Positions 1 to 54,140 of a stretch of DNA of 64,000 bases are shown piece by piece. The DNA is taken from assembly GCA_951406725.2 (NCBI GenBank), contig OX597826.1, positions 70,928,001-70,992,000 on the forward strand, given 5' to 3'. The notes beneath the pieces are model-generated. The model searched no databases, was not told the DNA's origin, and saw nothing but the letters and a program-made list of their open reading frames with translations. Source of the stretch: Octopus vulgaris. Lineage: Eukaryota. A program made the position numbers and the translations under genes. Position 1 is the stretch's first letter. Every line of letters starts with the position of its first letter.

Positions 1-310
1 TCTTCCATCCGATTGCGCTCAAATCTGATATGTAGATACCGACGGTATCAGGGCGTGTATAAGTCTTGACAAAATTACAAAAATCGATTCCAGGTGAGAA
101 TGATCGATAAAGAATATTTGTGTGAATAAAATCGTTTTTCTTTGGAATAGAAAAAAAAGTATATCTTTATTTCTTCTTTTGCTTTAGGTAAAATCAGTGT
201 TTCTCAGAGGGGAGGCCTATGGGACGGTCGGACAAGTTTCTTTTTTTAGAAACTTTGGTTTAAATGTTTAACAACTCAGCACCATCCATTGGACGGGAGG
301 CGTTTTACTC

Positions 311-311
<1 letters not shown>
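1..311 (+). mobile_element. Non-autonomous Helitron, 3' part (runs off window start)
   Basis: Matches the reverse complement of 60919-61220 over two blocks. Ends in hairpin CCATCCA-T-TGGACGG (282-296) followed by CTCG|T, a decayed CTAG|T Helitron terminus. Confidence 0.7.
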
Positions 312-372
<61 letters not shown>

Positions 373-654
373 GGAAGCGTACGTTTGTCTATATTATGTT
401 TGACTTACAAACACATACTTGAAAGGTTTGCCATATCACTTTAAATATGGTAATAAATAGGATTCGTTTATATCTGTTGTGGTTAGGCTTTTATTTCAAA
501 GCGGAAATTACATCAGTCCGCTGGTACACATTAGCTGGAATATGAAGTATGTCTATACAAGTTAAATTCTGTTCATTATAATATTAATATATGCGCCTGT
601 GTGCATGTGTGTGCGTGTGTGCGTGTTTTATTGTTTGCATGCTTGAGAATATAT

Positions 655-695
<41 letters not shown>

Positions 696-1260
696 TGTAT
701 ACATATATGCATATGACTTTATGTAAAGCGAGAAAAAGGAAGTGGGGCTCATAAATAGTTTCCCAGACAAAAAGTGTATTCAATATTTTAAAACCACCAC
801 ATCCTCGTTTATAAAAGAGAGAAGCGAGTGAAAGATAGAGGAAACGAAATAGAGAAAGTGAAAGATAAATGCCGGAATTGCATGATTTCAGCAGCTATTC
901 TGCACGCATTTCGTTCAAACCAACGCAAACAGTAAAACATGTTTACTTTTCTCATGTATAGATTTGTAAACAGACTCACTGGTTTACAGATATACTATGT
1001 TCATTGATTCAGTACCATTTATTGACTACACAAATGTAAAATATAACACACACGCTACTCTGTTCTATTAGCATGCATTAATACAATTGTTTTGATTTTC
1101 TTTCGATTTATTTTTCACAGAAAAAAAAATACTTACACTATAATCTGCACACAATAATCTTTAGAATAGAATATTTTCAAATCAACTCGCTCTCCAGTTG
1201 CCTTCCATCAAATATTTCGTCTGTCTGCATACAATGTATAACAATATATTTGAGTACTAC

Positions 1261-1386
<126 letters not shown>

Positions 1387-1704
1387 CGTGTATGTATGTA
1401 TTATGTATATGTATATGATTATATATATATATATTTTTGGTTGTCCGGAAAGTTCTCAGCGTTTTTAAGCTAAATCTTTTGACGCTTCATTAAACACACC
1501 TGAAACGTATCACTGTAAAAACTTTGGCACTGCTTAAAATGATAGTGCACCTCTTCTTCTTTGTTCCTGACTTAAAATAGATCTATCTTTCATTCCGCTT
1601 ACCCTTTATTGATATTTGAGTGATAACCAAAAATTTCGTATTCGCGTTGTAATGGTTTTCTTTTTTAAAAAAAGGAGAAAATACTGCGAAAGCTTGCAGA
1701 AACA

Positions 1705-1946
1705 TTTTACTCTTTTACTTGTTTCAGTCATTTGACAGCGGCCATGCTGGAGCATCACCTTTCGTCGAGCCAATCGACCCTAGGACTTATTCTTTAGATG
1801 CCTAGTACTTAATCTATCAGCCTCTTTTGCCGAACCGCTAAGTTACGGGGACGTAAGCACACCAGCATCGGTTGTCAAGCGATGTTGGGCAGACAAACAT
1901 AGACACACAAACATATACACGCACTTGCATATATATATATGTATGG

Positions 1947-2001
<55 letters not shown>

Positions 2002-2142
2002 TATGACGGGATTCTTTCAGTTTCCGTCTACCAAATCCACTCACCAGGCTTTGGTCGGCCCGAGGCTATAGTAGAAGACACTTGCCACGCAGTGGGAATG
2101 AACCCGGAACCATGCAGTTGGTAAGCAAGCTACTTACCACAC
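1705..2142 (-). mobile_element. tRNA/CORE-type SINE with internal (TA)n (family C), inserted in mariner
   Basis: Reverse complement matches 56085-56330 and 61846-62010. Removing it restores the mariner frame AKACRNI|CKFYGDDAV. Confidence 0.85.
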
Positions 2143-2946
2143 AATTTGTAAATTTTATGGTGATGATGCTGTAGGTGAATTAACTGTTTAAAACGAGAGT
2201 GTTTAACTGGGAAGATGACAATCGCAGTGGAAGACCTTCCAAATTGGATGAAGATATTTTGAAGGCAAAAATTTGAAAACTTGCAGAGTAGTTGGAAGTT
2301 TCTAAAACTACGGCTCATAAACACCTAGTGAAGCTAGGATAAATTTCTCGCTATAATGTATGGGCCCCTCACAAACACTCAGAAAAGTATTGCTTAGACC
2401 GGTATTCCGTTTGTGATATGCTTTTGAAAGGGAATGAAAGCATGCCTTCTTTGAAACATCTTGTGACTGGAGATGAAAACTGGATTGAGTACGAAAACAT
2501 AATGCGAAAAAGATCCTGGAGTTTGCGTAAGGATCCAACAAAACAGCAATCAAACACGAATATCCATGCCAAAATGCTATGCTTTGTGCGCATAACTTAA
2601 CTGGATCTCATTCGAAACCCAAACAGTGACATGATATTATCACAACATTATTTATTATGAGCTTCTTTCACAAAACCACACCGTTAATTCTAATGTGTAC
2701 TGTCGACAGCTGGCTAGTTTGAATATAAAAATAAGAACTGAGGCCGGAGATTACCAAGAGGAAAGGAGTAGTATTCCAACACGACAATGCCCGATCATAT
2801 GTGTCTTTGGCAACCCGAACAAAGTTACATGAACTTGGCCGGAATCATTTACAGCATCCACCATATTCTCCTGATATTGCGGCGTCCGACTACCGCTTGT
2901 TTATGTCTCTACTGAACTAATTGCAAGGAAATGCGTTTAACGATTT

Positions 2947-3255
2947 TTTCTTGCGCCCTTTTCAAGACTAGCCAGGCTCATGGGCCCGGTTTCCCGGTTT
3001 CTGTGGCGTATGTGTTCCCCCCAGCTGAACGGGACGCCAGTCCATCGCAACGTTACTCAAGAAACAAGAAGAAAGAGTGAAAGAAACTTGGGGCGAATGA
3101 GTACAACAGGGGTCGCCACCACCCCCTGCCGGAGCCTCGTGGAGATCTTTAGGCGTTTTCGCTCAATAAACACACACAACGCCCGGTCTGGGAATCGAAA
3201 CCGCGATCCTTCGACCGCGAGTCCGCTGCCCAGACCACTGGACCATTGCGCCCCA
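2947..3255 (-). mobile_element. tRNA-derived SINE (family B, subtype B1), full length
   Basis: A/B box head on the minus strand. V-SINE-like segment CGATGGACTGGCGTCCCGT. 11-bp TSD TTTAACGATTT at 2936-2946 and 3256-3266. Confidence 0.9.
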
Positions 3256-3487
3256 TTTAACGATTTAGATGGAGTCAAATGCACTTTGGTAACTTCTTTC
3301 TTCACAACCAGCCAAGTTTTATGCTGATGGAATATTTAAACTGCCTCATAGATGGGCAAAGGCCATCAATAATAATGGAAATTATTTCATCCAATAAAAT
3401 CGAAAGGTCAATTATTTTATATCCATTTTTGCATATTAAAAAACGGTCAAAACTTTCCGGACAACCATGTGTGTTTGTATGTGTATG

Positions 3488-3544
<57 letters not shown>

Positions 3545-3555
3545 ATGTATGTATG

Positions 3556-3626
<71 letters not shown>

Positions 3627-3699
3627 TGGTGCCAAAGAAATTCAATTTATCTCGGCTTTCATCATTAATATTATAATTGGAAATGAATTGAAGAGAGAG

Positions 3700-4330
3700 C
3701 GGTAGATTATCAGCGGATTAGAAGTCGGAAAAATGATTGACAGGATTTCGTTTAGTTCTATGATTTGAGATTATATCCCATTGAGACCAACTTTGCCTTC
3801 CATCTTATCAGAATCCATAAAATATAATTGATAAAATTAAGACGGCGAGCTGGCAGAAACGTTAGCACGCCGGGCGAAATGCGTAGCCGTATTTCGTCTG
3901 CCGCTACGTTCTGAGTTCAAATTCCGCCGTGGTTGACTTTACCTTTCATCCTTTCAGGATCGATTAAATAAGTACCAGTTACGCACTAGGGTCGATATAA
4001 TCGACTTAATCCGTTTGTCTGTCCTTGTTTGTCCTCTCTGTGTTTAGCCCCTTGTGGGTAGTAAAGAAATAAATAGGGTATTTCGTCTGCCGTTACGTTC
4101 TGAGTTCAAATTCCGCCGAGATCGACTTTGCCTTTCATCATTTCGGGGTCGATAAATTAAGTACCAGTTACACGCTTGGGTCGATGTAATCGACTTAATC
4201 CCTTTGTCTGTCCTTGTTTGTCCCCTCTATGTTTAGCCCCTTGTGGGCAATAAAGAAATAATAAAATATAGTACCAGTCAAGTCGATGGTATTGCTTATC
4301 CCTCCTCTTAAAATTGCTGCCCTTGTACAA
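3700..4330 (+). mobile_element. SINE family A partial tandem dimer (3842-4260) nested in an older family A copy
   Basis: Head GGCGAGCTGGCAGAAACGTTAGCACGCCGGG, B box GAGTTCAAATTCC and core GACTTTGCCTTTCATC..GGGGTCGATAAATTAAGTACCAG. Second unit restarts at GGTATTTCGTCTG (4077). ATAAAATATA occurs on both sides. Confidence 0.85.
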
Positions 4331-4334
4331 CGAA

Positions 4335-4378
<44 letters not shown>

Positions 4379-4569
4379 GAGGGGAGAGAGACAGAAGACA
4401 GACAGACAAACAGACAGATAGACATGGATGGAGGGTGAGCGAGAGGGCATCTATGCTATCACTCGATCTGCTATAACTACCAGTCAAACTCCAATACAGT
4501 TATTCTCTCGCGTTTTAATGAAGAAGAACGCCATATTAGATATTCAAGTCCGAGATCACTCCTAAAAAA

Positions 4570-5022
4570 AATTATCATCATCATCAATATAATTAATATC
4601 ATTTTCATCATTATCATTACTCGCTCCATTAGCACCAACATCATAATCATCACAATCGTTTTTATCATCATCATAATCATCACAATCGTTTTTATCATCA
4701 CCACCATCATCATCATCATCATCATCCTCACCGCCACCACCATCACCATCGTCACACCCACCATCACCACCAGTATCATCATCAACAACATGGCTACCAT
4801 ATATCCTACTATCAGAACCAACTTTATCATCATCATCATCATCATCATCATAAACATCATCATATATCATCATCATCATCATCTTTTTCATCTTCATCTT
4901 CATCATCAGTGGCTCTGTGAACTTCTTTTAATATTTCTTTATATTTTCAAGATTTTTCCATACTGTATAATTCCTGTTTCGTACATAATGGAGATGAAAG
5001 AAAATATGAAAATAAAAATAAA

Positions 5023-5058
<36 letters not shown>

Positions 5059-5067
5059 TATTATTAT

Positions 5068-5135
<68 letters not shown>
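4570..5135. repeat. (CAT/CAC)n and (AAT)n microsatellite cluster
   Basis: Direct reading; representative of dozens of such tracts in the window. Confidence 0.9.
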
Positions 5136-5137
<2 letters not shown>

Positions 5138-5340
5138 CGTTAGCCATTACCATGAAACTAAAATTGATACACCCTTCCACACCACCCACATAATATTAGA
5201 ATGGTTCTTGGAGAACATACTTCAAGAGATAATCAATATTTATTTTCATTTCGTTTCTTTCTGTCTATTTTTTATGTGTATGTGTTCATACATACACACA
5301 CACACACACACATATTTATATATATATATACACAAATAAA

Positions 5341-5420
<80 letters not shown>

Positions 5421-5456
5421 CATATGTATATATATATATATATATACATATATATT

Positions 5457-5499
<43 letters not shown>

Positions 5500-5834
5500 A
5501 TACATATGTATGTACGTCTACACATGTATGTATATGTGCCTCTGTGTGGGGGCTTACATATGTGTGTTGGACTATTTGTATTTGTGTATGTGATTTTGAA
5601 AAGATGATTTTAGTGTTTCCATGACAACTATCTATTCGATCAAACGAAGCGATGGAATAAATATAATTTATTATTTTAGTTCCAAGTTAACACACACACA
5701 CACACACAAACACACATGCACACAGAGAAACACTTACACACATACAGGCAGACACACTCACTTGCACGCACAAGAACATACGTACCTACACATACATAGA
5801 TATATGTGTGTCCGTGTAGGTGTCCGTGTATATA

Positions 5835-5896
<62 letters not shown>

Positions 5897-6431
5897 CATA
5901 TATATACATATATATACATATATATATTTGTGTATATATATATAAATATGTGTGTGTATGTATGTATGAACACATACACATATATATATATGATACATGT
6001 ATACATATGTGCGCGCGAGTATCGCTATTATAATTAAATAATATAATCAGGGGAGGACCAGTGCCGATGACCTTTTTGGGGTTTTACTCAGATGTTTCAA
6101 TCGCTGCCCCTTAATGTTTTAGTTTAATCATCCATGGATCGATGCCGTAGTAAAGTATTTGGGCTTCTGGGAAATCCGGGTCATCTACAATGCTCTACAT
6201 GAATTAGGCGCCATATTGAATCCAGTGTTTGCAGAATAAGAATCAAGACGATGAGTGAAATACGTTTTTTCTCACTTCTCAAACCGTCCTTGTTACCATG
6301 GTTTCATTATCGTTCTTCTTTTAGATTTTGTTTCTTCTATCCCAGAGACTACAATTTTCTAGAACTGCAATCTCCTCCACCTCACTGTTTCTCTTGCTTC
6401 TTACGATTTCTCAGTATTTGTCTTAATATTT

Positions 6432-6650
6432 GGCGGCGAGCCGATAGAATCGTTACCGCGCCGGACTAAATGCTTATCAGCATTTCGTCCGTCTTCCCAT
6501 TATGAGTTCAAACTCCGCCGAGGTCGACTCTGCATTTCATCCATTTCGAGGTCGATAAAATAAGCACCAGCTGAGCACTTGGATCGATTTAATCGACTTG
6601 GTCCCTCCCCCAAAATTGCTGGACTTCTACCAAAATTTGAAACCAAATAT
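6432..6650 (+). mobile_element. SINE family A copy
   Basis: Similarity to 3842-4070 and 44155-44380. Confidence 0.85.
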
Positions 6651-6724
6651 TTGTCTTGAATGACTGAAAATGACGGGTGTTTTTAGGGTCCCCCTGTAAT
6701 CTTAGTAGTTTCTGCTGTCGTTCT

Positions 6725-6805
6725 TCTTTAGCCCCAGCTTCACGGTCTTGATTGAGCTGACCTATGATGAACAATGTCCCAGGCATGATGACCATTTTCC
6801 CCCCA
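6725..6805 (+). repeat. Old dispersed repeat fragment (related copies near 17630-17700, 19150-19200, 33370-33445)
   Basis: Shared degenerate motif TTTAGCCYCAGGTCA..CYTGATYGAGC.GACCTA in several places, all on the + strand. Confidence 0.5.
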
Positions 6806-6950
6806 TCATTTTTGGGGTGCTATGTGTAAGGGACATATAACGTGAAATTATTTTGTTAACGAAGATGCAACGTTAGTGTGAAAAACATGACAACTTGTAT
6901 TAATTTGTTGTATTTGTTATCTTAATTCGTTTTTCTTCTTTCTGTTTCAG

Positions 6951-7970
6951 ACAATGCATAGCTGGATTGCAGCTTCAATGTCACCATCCCATAGCAGACG
7001 ACGGGAAAAGGATACTAAACGCCATAACCATCATCATCATACCGGTGTACGTGAAAAGCCACACGGGGCCGAAAGCCTCGATCCTGAACTGCTGTGTAAA
7101 ATCCTGCATACTAATATCAGTAAGGACAACCATAAAGAGCATGGCAGACCCAGTTCTCTATTGTCCCCAAGTTATAATACCCTATCAAAATCTTGCGACG
7201 ATATGACCAAATGCGATGACAGCCCACAACCAGTTGAAACTATTATCCATGATAAGAAATATATTGGTTTGGTGCCGGCCGCTTATGTAAATCGAAGCAA
7301 GTCACATAACGATATCATTATCCAGCGACGGCTTGTTACCCCAAAAGATTCGAAATCCGCTTCCCCAACTCCATTACCTTCGGCCTATATGGAAGAACGT
7401 TACGTGATTCGCATCCGAAAAGGACCGCACCATTCACACAAAATGCATAAATCTCATTCGGGTTATCTGAAACCCAAGACTGAGCTTTCCCGATCCTACA
7501 GTGCGCATAACTTAACTGGATCTCATTCGAAACCCAAACAGCGACATGAGATTATCACAACATTTGGTTTGTCCCCAGATTCACCGCCGTCAAGTCAAGA
7601 AATCTCGCCAGAGACAAGCACTGAAAGACAAACACCAACAGATAACCAAAACTCAAGCAGTCATGTTGAGAGAACTCCGTCCGAAGAGCATGACGAGCAA
7701 AACAACCACAAAAATAACAATAATAACAACAACACCAACAACAACAGAGAAAGTCATCACGGAAAAAATAGTCTACACCACAAACTTTTCCTGAACTTAC
7801 CAGTTCCAGAGAGAAGGCATAGTTATGTCGGCGGGCAGACGGCTTACAGTGCCAAATCGAAATCACCAACAGCTAGAAAATCAGAGAGCGGTCATTCTCT
7901 GTTGAGCGTGGAAACCATAAAAGCTCTTGTCACTCCTCATGGCAAGAAGCACCACAGAGATATGAAATAA
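6951..7970 (+). CDS. Terminal coding exon of an unidentified gene; Ser/His/Pro/Lys-rich, probably disordered C-terminal tail (~339 aa)
   Basis: Strong acceptor TTTTTCTTCTTTCTGTTTCAG|ACA at 6950/6951. 1020-nt non-repetitive open frame ending in TAA at 7968-7970. Higher GC than flanks and no TE motifs. Upstream exons not seen in the window. Confidence 0.85.
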   Translation, partial: TMHSWIAASMSPSHSRRREKDTKRHNHHHHTGVREKPHGAESLDPELLCKILHTNISKDNHKEHGRPSSLLSPSYNTLSKSCDDMTKCDDSPQPVETIIHDKKYIGLVPAAYVNRSKSHNDIIIQRRLVTPKDSKSASPTPLPSAYMEERYVIRIRKGPHHSHKMHKSHSGYLKPKTELSRSYSAHNLTGSHSKPKQRHEIITTFGLSPDSPPSSQEISPETSTERQTPTDNQNSSSHVERTPSEEHDEQNNHKNNNNNNNTNNNRESHHGKNSLHHKLFLNLPVPERRHSYVGGQTAYSAKSKSPTARKSESGHSLLSVETIKALVTPHGKKHHRDMK

Positions 7971-39819: not shown

Positions 39820-40778
39820 CTAGCAGCATAGCCCGGCGTTGCCCGGGTATGTAAGAGCCCCTAGTAGGCAACGACTAATCCCAATCTAGTCCTTTCCCTC
39901 TAGGGAACGAAGGCGCATGTGTAGGTTGCAATGTCTTCTCTTCACTCGAATACTTCTGTGTATACGATGTTCCTAGCTGTCCCTTTGGGCGAAAACATAA
40001 AATCATCATTGCGCCTCCCAACGCGTGAACAGCCCACGTAGAGTTGACCGTGGGCGAAGCACTGTTCGCCCAACTGTAACCCAGCGACTTGTAGCGTTTG
40101 GCCTTGGGATTTATTGATGGACATTGCGAAGTAGAGTTTAACAGGAAACTGAGAACGCCTGAAGTGGATTGGTAGGTCAGCGCCCGACGGTTGAAGGTGC
40201 ATGCGCGGAATGAAGACGTCCTCTCCCTTCCCACAACGGGTAAGTATTGTGGCTGTTATTAGATGTGGTGGCAAATGTTTCACAACCAGACGTGTGCCGT
40301 TGCACTGTTTAGGTGGAAGCAAATTCCTGATGAGCATAATGGGCGCACCGACTTTTAACTTCAGGATGTGTGGCGGCAGGCCTGGCGGTTCAAGTGAATT
40401 CAGGAATTCAACAGGATAATCGACAAGCTCGGCGGGGTCTGCTGTCCTATCAATAGATTTGTAGACGTGGACATCAGCAGGAATAGCTTCAAGTAGCTGG
40501 ATATTGATGGAGATGAGAGTTAAAAAGGTCGAGTTGCGTTCCCTAGACAGTGTGTGATTTGTGTTTCTGATTCTCGACCCCATGTCGAATTTATCGATTT
40601 TGTTCAGAACTGGGGGAACTTTTCAAAATTTTCGCTGCGTTAGTTTTGAATTATGACATTTGGCTATGTGTGTGTCAAGTTTCATCAGAATCGGTTGAAA
40701 GCCGTGGTCAGGGTGAGGTTACAACCTGACAGACACACAGACACACACAAGACAAACTGCCGTTTATATATAGAGAGA
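39820..40778 (-). mobile_element. Internally deleted mini-Helitron with both termini intact
   Basis: Minus strand 5' A|TCTCTCTATATATAAAC; 3' hairpin CCCGGGCAACGCCGGG then CTAG|T. Inserted between A and T with no TSD. Confidence 0.93.
39942..40583 (-). CDS. Helitron PIF1-like helicase, C-terminal fragment (213 aa, uninterrupted)
   Basis: YPVEFLNSLEPPGLPPHILKLKVGAPIMLIRNL, CNGTRL, QFPVKLYFAMSINKSQGQTL, FAHGQLYVGCSRV, NIVYTEV. Lacks Walker A/B motifs and the Rep domain. Confidence 0.9.
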   Translation of the reverse strand: MGSRIRNTNHTLSRERNSTFLTLISINIQLLEAIPADVHVYKSIDRTADPAELVDYPVEFLNSLEPPGLPPHILKLKVGAPIMLIRNLLPPKQCNGTRLVVKHLPPHLITATILTRCGKGEDVFIPRMHLQPSGADLPIHFRRSQFPVKLYFAMSINKSQGQTLQVAGLQLGEQCFAHGQLYVGCSRVGRRNDDFMFSPKGTARNIVYTEVFE

Positions 40779-52621: not shown

Positions 52622-54140
52622 TATCAAACATCGTGCACCTGTACAAGAACAATGTGACAACCACAGAGACATCTCATTGCTGAGCATCGCAGGAAAGATC
52701 ATGGCCCGTGATATTCTGAACCGCATCACACACCACCTGCTGGACGACGTGGTCTCAGAGAGCCAGTGTGGATTTAGGAACAACAGGGAGACATTAGACA
52801 TGGTCTTTGCAGTACGGAAAATACAAGAGAAATGCCGATGAACAAAGCCAGAACCTCTACATCCTCTTCGTGGACCTGATGAAAGCTTTTGACACTGTCA
52901 GCTGAGAGGGCCTTTGGGATATCTTGTCCAAGCTAGGCTGCCCACCGAAGCTCGTCAGGATCATCCAGTCATTTCATGATGGCTTGATGGCTCGCATCGT
53001 GGAAAACGGAGATGTCTCTGATCCATTCCCGGTCTCCAATGGCATGAAGCAAGGCTGCGTGATGGCACCCACACTCTTCAGCCTCATGTTTGCCACCATG
53101 CTCTTCCGCGCCCTGTCAAAGTTTGACGCTGGTGTTATTATTCGCTACAGATGTGACGGCCGATTCTTGGACCTCAGACGTTTGAAGGCCAAAACCAAAG
53201 TCCTGTTTGCAGACGATTGTGCGTTTGCAGCATTGAATGAACCAGACCTGCAAGAACTTGCCACTTGTCTCGCAGAAGCAGCAAAATCCTTCGGACTGAC
53301 CATTAGCCTGCGAAAAATGGAAGTGATGTTTCAGCCCGCACCTGTCCTGACACCTCCTGAGTCTCAAATTGGGATTGAGGGCACAACTCTGAACAACGTG
53401 GAGAGACTTAAATACCTGGGAAGCTGCCTGTCTTCAAACTGCAGAGTGGACAAAGATGTCTCCATGAGGCTTGCAAAAGCAGTAGCTTCGTTTGGCAGAC
53501 TTTGGACATGTGTGTGGGCCAAATGAGGCATCAGACTTTCCACCAAGCCGGCAGTCTATAGGACAGTCGTCATCACTTCTCTGCTCTACGGCCGTGGGAC
53601 GTGGACGCTGTATAGGAGGAAAATGAGAGCACTTGAACAGTTCCACCTCCGCTGCTTGCGACGAATCATGGGAATTTCCTGGGAGGACAGAGTCTCCAAC
53701 ACTGAAGTGGTTCGCAGAGCCGAAATACCCGGGATCGAAGTCCTCATCATGAAGGCTCAGCTCCGAATGGACAACCAGGTCTACCAAAGATGTTCTTCTT
53801 CTCTGAGCTGGCTTCTGGAGCAAGAAACCCTGGAAGGCCACTGAGGCGATACAAGGACAGCCTGAAAGCTTCCCTTGAGGCCTGCGGCATTTCAGCCCGT
53901 AGCTGGGCATCGCTTGCCTCTGACCGCAGCGCCTGTCTTCCAGGTGTCCAAAAGGGTGTTAGGCTGTTCGAGAAAAAGCGCTTCAAGAAGCGACAAGCCC
54001 GAAAAGAGAGGATCCCCAACTCTACTTCTGCTGTTACGTGCCCAACATGTGGCCGCATCTGCGCGTCCGCCTTTGGGATCTGCTCCCAGCTCCAGCGTCA
54101 CTGACGTCATTGTCGAACCCCTACAGACTTCCATTATTAT
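52622..54140 (+). mobile_element. 5'-truncated RTE/BovB-like LINE, pseudogenised reverse transcriptase
   Basis: IVHLYKN, HRDISLLSIAGKIMAR, ESQCGFR, FVDLMKAFDTVS, GMKQGCVMAPTLF, LFADD, KYLGS, FHLRCLRRI, and C-terminal CPTCGRIC..QRH*. Several stops and frameshifts. Confidence 0.95.

What the first reader, a model, noticed from the sequence alone, without database searches (positions are those of the whole stretch)
2586..2649. 64 bp of the host coding exon copied into the mariner transposase 4.9 kb upstream
Seen: 2586-2649 equals 7501-7564 (inside the 6951-7970 exon) at 62 of 64 positions, in the same orientation. It lies between mariner MLCFV and IIYYELL, where the conserved WWDxxG segment is missing. 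The junctions share GTG (left) and ATT (right) with both sequences. Inference: a templated insertion from break repair (polymerase theta/SDSA-type) using the nearby exon, or its transcript, as donor. Donor and copy probably lie in one pre-mRNA, and the direction is host to TE.
Basis: partly seen in the sequence, partly recalled or inferred. Interest (0 to 1): 0.72.

Follow-up and report, generated by a model that had tools for sequence, protein, structure and literature searches.

The report
DNA-repair patch inside octopus transposon
A 64-base piece of an octopus gene's coding exon is copied into a broken jumping-gene remnant 4.9 kb upstream in the same gene's intron; related species carry it too, and it is likely the scar of one error-prone DNA break repair, a kind already catalogued in vertebrates, with no sign of function.

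Summary
2586-2649 matches 7501-7564 at 62 of 64 bases, and a search of the 2.8-Gb genome finds the stretch only at these two places. None of 49 other mariner copies examined has it. This copy lost 19 bp and gained 57 bp, with microhomology GTG (left) and CATT (right, 4 bp, not 3). The donor peptide is conserved in Argonauta, so the direction is host to transposon. Spliced RNA contigs place the mariner in the gene's 17.7-kb intron. Contigs from three organism labels bridge the right junction and one bridges the left, so it is not an assembly error and predates a split of about 4%. All four runs read the donor's base at 2635. This is a new member of a known class, repair-mediated duplication (Pace et al. 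2009: 824 in human, donor under 5 kb, exons included). Such local copies recur in this genome: 2 of 49 other mariners, and at least 3 more two-copy pairs in 1 Mb. Nothing favours an RNA template, and SDSA, MMBIR and Pol-theta cannot be told apart. The scan noted the same kind in lizard, cat, skate and this genome. Ordinary; interest 0.15.

The parts
2586..2649 (+). Copied patch (acceptor): 57 bp gained (2589-2645) plus both microhomologies; replaces 19 bp of transposase sequence
2586..2588 (+). Left microhomology GTG, shared by the mariner family and donor 7501-7503
2646..2649 (+). Right microhomology CATT, shared by the mariner family and donor 7561-7564; 10 of the last 15 bases agree between family and donor
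7501..7564 (+). Donor, inside the coding exon; its peptide is conserved in Argonauta hians
6951..7970 (+). Exon holding the whole 338-aa reading frame (ATG 6954, stop 7968-7970) of an octopod gene of unknown function; spliced at 6951
1..6950 (+). 3' part of the 17,689-bp intron (G000:C13:70917262-70934950) that holds the mariner; the upstream non-coding exon ends at C13:70917261, outside the window
1436..3466 (+). Decayed mariner copy (family about 1,288 bp) with terminal inverted repeats near 1438-1454 and 3450-3466, stops and frameshifts; 9.1% from the family majority
   Evidence: PF01359 on family copy L007
1708..2143 (.). Repeat insertion nested in the mariner (436 bp)
2947..3255 (.). Second nested high-copy repeat, flanked by an 11-bp direct repeat (2936-2946 and 3256-3266)

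Best explanation
A 57-bp stretch of the gene's coding exon replaces 19 bp of an old, broken mariner transposon in the same gene's intron, and it likely arose when a germline double-strand break in the mariner was repaired by copying nearby chromosomal DNA. Inferred steps: the break lost 19 bp; one end primed on the exon 4.9 kb away through 3-4 bases of microhomology; about 60 bases were copied; the new strand came off and annealed to the other end through the second microhomology (SDSA-like or MMBIR-like template switch, enzyme not identified). Shown: copy, deletion, microhomologies, direction, intronic position, presence in other organisms. Inferred from divergence: the event came well after the mariner landed and before the split from organism D, so it was independent of transposition, and the patch has since drifted as neutral DNA.
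For: Two genomic places only. 29 of 29 aligned copies spanning the site lack it, and 49 of 49 by pairwise alignment. Donor peptide conserved in Argonauta; an O. bimaculoides protein is in the same 90% cluster. Microhomology of at least 3 and at least 4 at the two ends arises in 0.18% of 200,000 random joins. Donor intact, no target-site duplication, no poly(A). This is the 'MH+Del, under 5 kb' class of Pace et al. Table 1, 9 of 39 proximal cases. Right junction bridged in runs X2 (organism A), X5 (B) and X9 (D); left junction bridged in X9. Mariner 9.1% from the family majority against 1-2 of 64 for copy versus donor; binomial P = 0.016 for 1 or fewer, 0.061 for 2 or fewer. The changes at 2627 (shared by A, B, D; a stop in the exon frame) and 2590 (D only) are both CpG transitions. 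Locally copied patches recur: L004, 40 bp inverted from about 0.9 kb; L006, 115 bp inverted, best genome-wide match 4.2 kb away; 14 of 15 two-copy pairs in 1 Mb lie within 5 kb against 0.14 expected.
Against: No orthologous empty mariner was seen in an outgroup; the pre-insertion state comes from paralogues. The 19-bp deletion is longer than the 1-15 nt range in Pace Table 1, and 4.85 kb is at the edge of their 5-kb class. The left junction was shown bridged in only 1 of 4 runs, and X2 has no depth at 2590 (the tool says a filter drops records). No long or raw reads were laid. The age contrast rests on 64 bases, and P is 0.06 with the assembly's two mismatches. Of 6 other 1-Mb pairs checked genome-wide, 3 were repeat families, so the 14 overstates the rate.
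Confidence: 0.85

Rival explanations
1. RNA-templated repair: the break in the intron was patched by reverse transcription of the gene's own pre-mRNA or mRNA (class 2 TSIP-like).
For: The donor is exonic, and both sites lie in one transcription unit. Class 2 TSIPs show microdeletion and microhomology and were argued to come from RNA.
Against: The copied stretch lies 550 bp inside the exon, so no splice junction can show RNA. TSI donors map to distant sites, whereas this donor is 4.9 kb away. Coding exon is 6.6% of the +/-5 kb neighbourhood, so an exonic donor by chance is unremarkable. Orientation does not discriminate, since either end could prime (reasoning). The comparators L004 and L006 copy transposon DNA, inverted.
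Confidence: 0.07
2. Capture linked to transposition: abortive gap repair after excision, or capture while the mariner was moving.
For: The recipient is a DNA transposon, and gap-filling after excision is a known route.
Against: Single copy; only 19 of about 1,288 bp lost, mid-element, both arms kept; patch younger than the element. Tan et al. use these same features to call single-copy Pack-TIRs transposition-independent.
Confidence: 0.04
3. The patch was kept by selection, as a cryptic exon or regulatory element.
For: Present under at least three organism labels. One low-depth contig (2.5x) of run X10 lies on the stretch with one difference from the donor.
Against: It shifts the frame of an already broken transposase and has a stop in the exon frame. 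In X13 the upstream exon is joined straight to 6951. It has taken CpG changes while the donor in organism D is unchanged. Sharing across a 4% split needs no selection.
Confidence: 0.03
4. Assembly artefact, or transposon-to-exon transfer.
For: The T at 2635 is not seen in any of 4 runs, so a local base error is possible.
Against: Junctions are bridged by independent contigs, including a 4%-diverged organism; the family lacks the stretch; the exon peptide is conserved in Argonauta.
Confidence: 0.01

Closest known systems
Repair-mediated duplications (RDs), Pace, Sen, Batzer, Feschotte 2009, PMC2671141 (read: parts 1-3 of 8 of the main text and passages)
   Same: Insertion of at least 50 bp interrupting a transposon; one other genomic copy; donor within 5 kb; microhomology plus small deletion; no poly(A); donors include exons, with one duplicated exon in an intron of its own gene (ACSBG2).
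   Different: Their survey covered vertebrates only; this is an octopus. The 19-nt deletion exceeds their 1-15 nt range. The patch is short (their median 147 bp). No orthologous empty site is available here.
Single-copy Pack-TIRs by transposition-independent gap filling, Tan et al. 2021, PMC8277862 (read: parts 1-2 of 10 and passages; supplements not read)
   Same: Host sequence inside a TcMariner element, single copy, cis donor under 5 kb, microhomology at both ends, small internal gap, formed after the element landed.
   Different: Their search required internal sequence longer than 100 bp, which 57-64 bp does not meet. 'Octopus' and 'mollus' do not occur in the main text; the species list in the supplement was not seen.
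Polymerase-theta templated insertions (review PMC12426944; passages)
   Same: Deletion, microhomology priming, release and re-annealing of the extended end.
   Different: Generally under 25 bp and copied from the flanks of the break; here 57 bp from 4.9 kb away. Enzyme dependence cannot be tested from sequence.
Class 2 templated sequence insertion polymorphisms, PMC5110952 (read: parts 1-2 of 4)
   Same: Germline patch with microdeletion and microhomology, donor intact, no target-site duplication or poly(A).
   Different: Donors are distant and argued to be RNA-derived; this donor is proximal, and the patch is shared across organisms.
Doublets (Thomas et al., seen only as cited in Pace) and MMBIR templated insertions (PMC8421209, search listing only)
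   Same: Short local two-copy duplications attributed to repair or template switching.
   Different: Not read, so no feature-level comparison was made.

Membership tests
Repair-mediated duplication (Pace 2009) | Insertion of at least 50 bp interrupting a transposon, not alignable to the family sequence | tested here: met
   57 bp gained, 64 with microhomologies
Repair-mediated duplication (Pace 2009) | [quoted passage not shown] | tested here: met
   2 places, 2 candidates scored
Repair-mediated duplication (Pace 2009) | Donor more than 50 bp and less than 5 kb from the acceptor | tested here: met
   4,851 bases between them
Repair-mediated duplication (Pace 2009) | Microhomology, deletion or filler at junctions; no poly(A/T) tail | tested here: met
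   GTG, CATT, 19-bp deletion, no tail; deletion longer than their 1-15 nt
Repair-mediated duplication (Pace 2009) | Empty orthologous site in an outgroup | tested here: inconclusive
   Organisms A, B and D carry the patch; C's contig covers part of it; no more distant outgroup was laid
Single-copy Pack-TIR (Tan 2021) | Non-transposon sequence flanked by both parts of one TIR element, single copy, cis donor | tested here: met
Single-copy Pack-TIR (Tan 2021) | Internal sequence longer than 100 bp (search cut-off) | tested here: not met
   57-64 bp against the cut-off quoted; works like one, not filed as one
Pol-theta templated insertion | Short (generally under 25 bp), copied from the break's flanks | tested here: not met
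   57 bp, 4.9 kb away
Pol-theta templated insertion | Dependence on POLQ | not testable with these tools
   needs genetics
Class 1 TSIP / retrotransposed copy | Target-site duplication and poly(A) tail | tested here: not met
Class 2 TSIP | Distant donor | tested here: not met
   donor 4.9 kb away (definition)
Class 2 TSIP | RNA origin | not testable with these tools
   no splice junction inside the copied stretch
Mariner transposon | Transposase_1 (PF01359) domain | tested here: met
   Family copy L007 scores 80.5 bits, E 8e-23; the 2 short fragments of the window's own copy gave no hit
Mariner transposon | Terminal inverted repeats, about 1.3 kb | tested here: met
   (1,288-bp majority)
Mariner transposon | TA target-site duplication | tested here: inconclusive
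   Ends abut simple repeats and no clean TA pair is visible

The most novel reading that the evidence does not exclude
A germline break in an intron was repaired in cis from the gene's own transcript, leaving a fixed evolutionary record of RNA-templated break repair in an animal; genome-wide, such octopus patches would then come preferentially from exons of the gene in which they sit.
Probability: 0.06. Interest if true: 0.6.

Novelty: new member of a known kind. Interest (0 to 1): 0.15.

Why it matters
As a single event it matters little: a neutral scar in dead intronic DNA. It is a clean invertebrate example of repair-mediated duplication. In the searched library no paper holds both 'repair-mediated duplication' and 'cephalopod' (papers with both terms rank first, and none of the 10 listed has the first term), and none of the 12 titles listed concerns it. 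The side result may be worth more. At least 3 further genome-unique local pairs in 1 Mb and 2 local patches in 56.5 kb of other mariner copies hint that octopus makes such copies more often than vertebrates (0.08-0.65 per Mb of transposon DNA). The criteria differ, so this is a lead only (my odds about 0.2).

Tried and rejected
Host protein identity: no Pfam family; no longer homologues (weak evidence); only the Octopus cluster and Argonauta in the near search; a full HMMER search with the Argonauta protein gave the Octopus cluster and one weak 109-aa hit; Atlas hits all under 0.9, no family named. The database name 'DDB_G0275275' was not taken as a function. The upstream exon is not in the window. 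No run was on record as RNA; X10 and X13 are guesses, though the GT-AG joint in X13 shows spliced RNA. Pfam missed the window's own transposase fragments. My test for 'copy splits a repeat' in the 1-Mb scan flagged none of 15 pairs, the finding included, so it was insensitive and unused. Three inverted pairs from that scan are repeat families, probably element ends, and were rejected as comparators; 7 of 13 other near pairs were not checked. The extended right-hand likeness (6 of 11 further bases) is marginal, P = 0.06. Same orientation was rejected as evidence for RNA. A joint skipping 2575-2645 in X2, X5 and X6 was read as another family copy, since it also skips 2575-2588, which an empty allele should match; an empty allele is not formally excluded.

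Full report
Observation. Window 2586-2649 and 7501-7564 agree at 62 of 64 bases on the same strand, with unrelated flanks; the mismatches are at 2627 (T against C, in a CpG) and 2635 (T against G). Chance is excluded, about 6e-32 per pair. A search of the own genome (2.8 Gb, 227 contigs) with the donor returns only these two places.

Recipient. The patch sits in a mariner copy spanning about 1436-3466, with terminal inverted repeats and two nested repeat insertions. The family has at least 1,238 candidates, and copy L007 matches Transposase_1. All 29 other copies aligned across the site lack the patch, as do all 49 distinct copies by pairwise alignment. These are the best-scoring copies, not a random sample, but settles uniqueness. 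Against the family majority this copy lost 19 bp, within the segment that reads WWDHKG, and gained 57 bp. GTG is shared at the left junction and CATT at the right. Random joins of family and exon sequence give this much microhomology in 0.18% of 200,000 trials. The element is broken by stops and frameshifts elsewhere.

Donor and direction. 6954-7970 is a complete 338-aa frame. Its 90% cluster includes an Octopus bimaculoides protein, and an Argonauta hians protein matches at 80% and keeps the donor peptide with two substitutions. The stretch is therefore old exon sequence, and the direction is host to transposon. The animal is an octopus; I did not identify the species. The protein has no family match.

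One transcription unit. Contigs of runs X10 and X13 begin at 6951 and continue for 217-218 other letters. The letters shown for X13 map once, to C13:70917240-70917261, followed by a GT donor.

Reality and age. Four DNA or unlabelled runs were laid, as assembled contigs rather than reads. The right junction is bridged in X2 (organism A), X5 (B) and X9 (D); X6 (C) has only 27 letters left of it, under the tool's bar. The left junction is shown bridged only in X9, and X2 has no depth at 2590. All four read G at 2635, the donor's base. The T at 2627 is shared by A, B and D, and D alone has G>A at 2590; both are CpG transitions, and D's donor is unchanged. D differs from the window by 15 of 387 and 5 of 208 letters in the mariner, by 13 substitutions in 281 intron bases, and by 4 listed in the exon. 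The mariner is 9.1% from its family majority (68 of 746 sites), while copy and donor differ at 1-2 of 64 (P = 0.016 or 0.061 if equally old). The inferred order is mariner insertion, long decay, patch, one CpG change, then the A-D split.

Base rate. Among 49 other copies (56.5 kb aligned) there are 13 insertions of 20 bp or more. Two are short local patches. L004 has 58 bp holding a 40-bp inverted copy of its own 5' arm about 0.9 kb away. L006 has 135 bp, of which 115 match best (92%, against 83-88% elsewhere) a repeat copy 4.2 kb away, inverted. The other 11 are longer (217-1,056 bp) and were not traced, except that two in L019 resemble each other. In 1 Mb around the locus, 15 pairs of 40-400 bp at 90% or more occur just twice; 14 lie within 5 kb against 0.14 expected, and the finding is the most distant of the 14. 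Of the 13 others, 6 were searched genome-wide: 3 are two-copy (4.5 kb inverted, 2.0 kb direct, 1.7 kb direct) and 3 are repeat families. Coding exon is 6.6% of the patch's +/-5 kb neighbourhood, so an exonic donor is expected now and then.

Mechanism. Shown: deletion, copy, two microhomologies, intact donor, no tail or target-site duplication. Inferred: a germline break, priming of one end on nearby chromosomal DNA, short synthesis, release and annealing to the other end. SDSA-like or MMBIR-like capture fits best. Pol-theta inserts are generally under 25 bp and come from the flanks (PMC12426944 passages), which fits less well but does not exclude the enzyme. An RNA template cannot be excluded, because the stretch holds no splice junction, but nothing favours it. 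Transposition-linked capture is unlikely given the single copy, small internal gap and late date.

Comparison. Pace et al. 2009 (PMC2671141; parts 1-3 of 8 and passages) found 824 human repair-mediated duplications by looking for transposons interrupted by at least 50 bp found once elsewhere within 5 kb; microhomology plus deletion was a common junction class, and exons were among the donors. This case meets their four sequence criteria; the empty outgroup site is untested. Tan et al. 2021 (PMC8277862; parts 1-2 of 10 and passages) describe single-copy Pack-TIRs with the same anatomy, but above 100 bp. TSIPs (PMC5110952; parts 1-2 of 4) have distant donors. An octopus repeat annotation (PMC13282606, passages) has no occurrence of 'capture' or 'repair'. 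No supplements were read; Tan's species list could bear on whether molluscs were covered. The scan's earlier notes report the same kind in lizard, cat, skate and another piece of this genome; they are unchecked, and I had found Pace before seeing them.

Function. None is evident. The patch adds a frameshift to a broken transposase and carries a stop in the exon frame, and the X13 contig joins the upstream exon straight to 6951. One 2.5x contig in X10 lies on 7522-7564 with one difference and is unexplained.

Verdict. Real, correctly interpreted in outline, a new member of a known kind; interest 0.15.

Noticed in passing
L004:1352-1409 (- strand): 58-bp patch in another mariner copy: a 40-bp inverted copy of the element's own 5' arm, about 0.9 kb away, plus short A/T repeat units.
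   Followed up: partly
L006:2402-2536; donor G000:C11:25805619-25805733: 135-bp patch in another mariner copy; 115 bp match best a repeat copy 4.2 kb away, inverted, and the patch is flanked by a duplicated stretch of the recipient.
   Followed up: yes
G000:C13:70757182/70761699, 71370911/71372936, 71440104/71441876: Three more short pairs (61, 61 and about 110 bp) found only twice genome-wide, 1.7-4.5 kb apart; donor and acceptor not polarised.
   Followed up: partly
window 2635: The assembly's T is G in 4 of 4 runs laid: a private variant or a base error.
   Followed up: partly
window 7522-7564 (run X10): A 221-bp contig at depth 2.5 lies on only 43 of the 64 bases with one difference and has 122 other letters where 7501-7521 should follow; a variant of the copy, intronic RNA or a chimera.
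   Followed up: no
window 7563-7568: The six donor bases straddling the end of the copied stretch equal the first six bases that the mariner lost; significance not tested.
   Followed up: no
window 6954-7970: Whole reading frame in one exon, rich in Ser and His, conserved between Octopus and Argonauta with no other relative found; function unknown.
   Followed up: partly
window 39945-40622 (-) and 52906-54101 (+): Frames resembling a PIF1-type helicase (Helitron-like) and a LINE reverse transcriptase; both labels recalled, not tested.
   Followed up: no
L019:1191-1424 and 2297-2557: Two insertions in one mariner copy that are 91% alike over about 180 bp; two hits by one repeat family or a local copy.
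   Followed up: no
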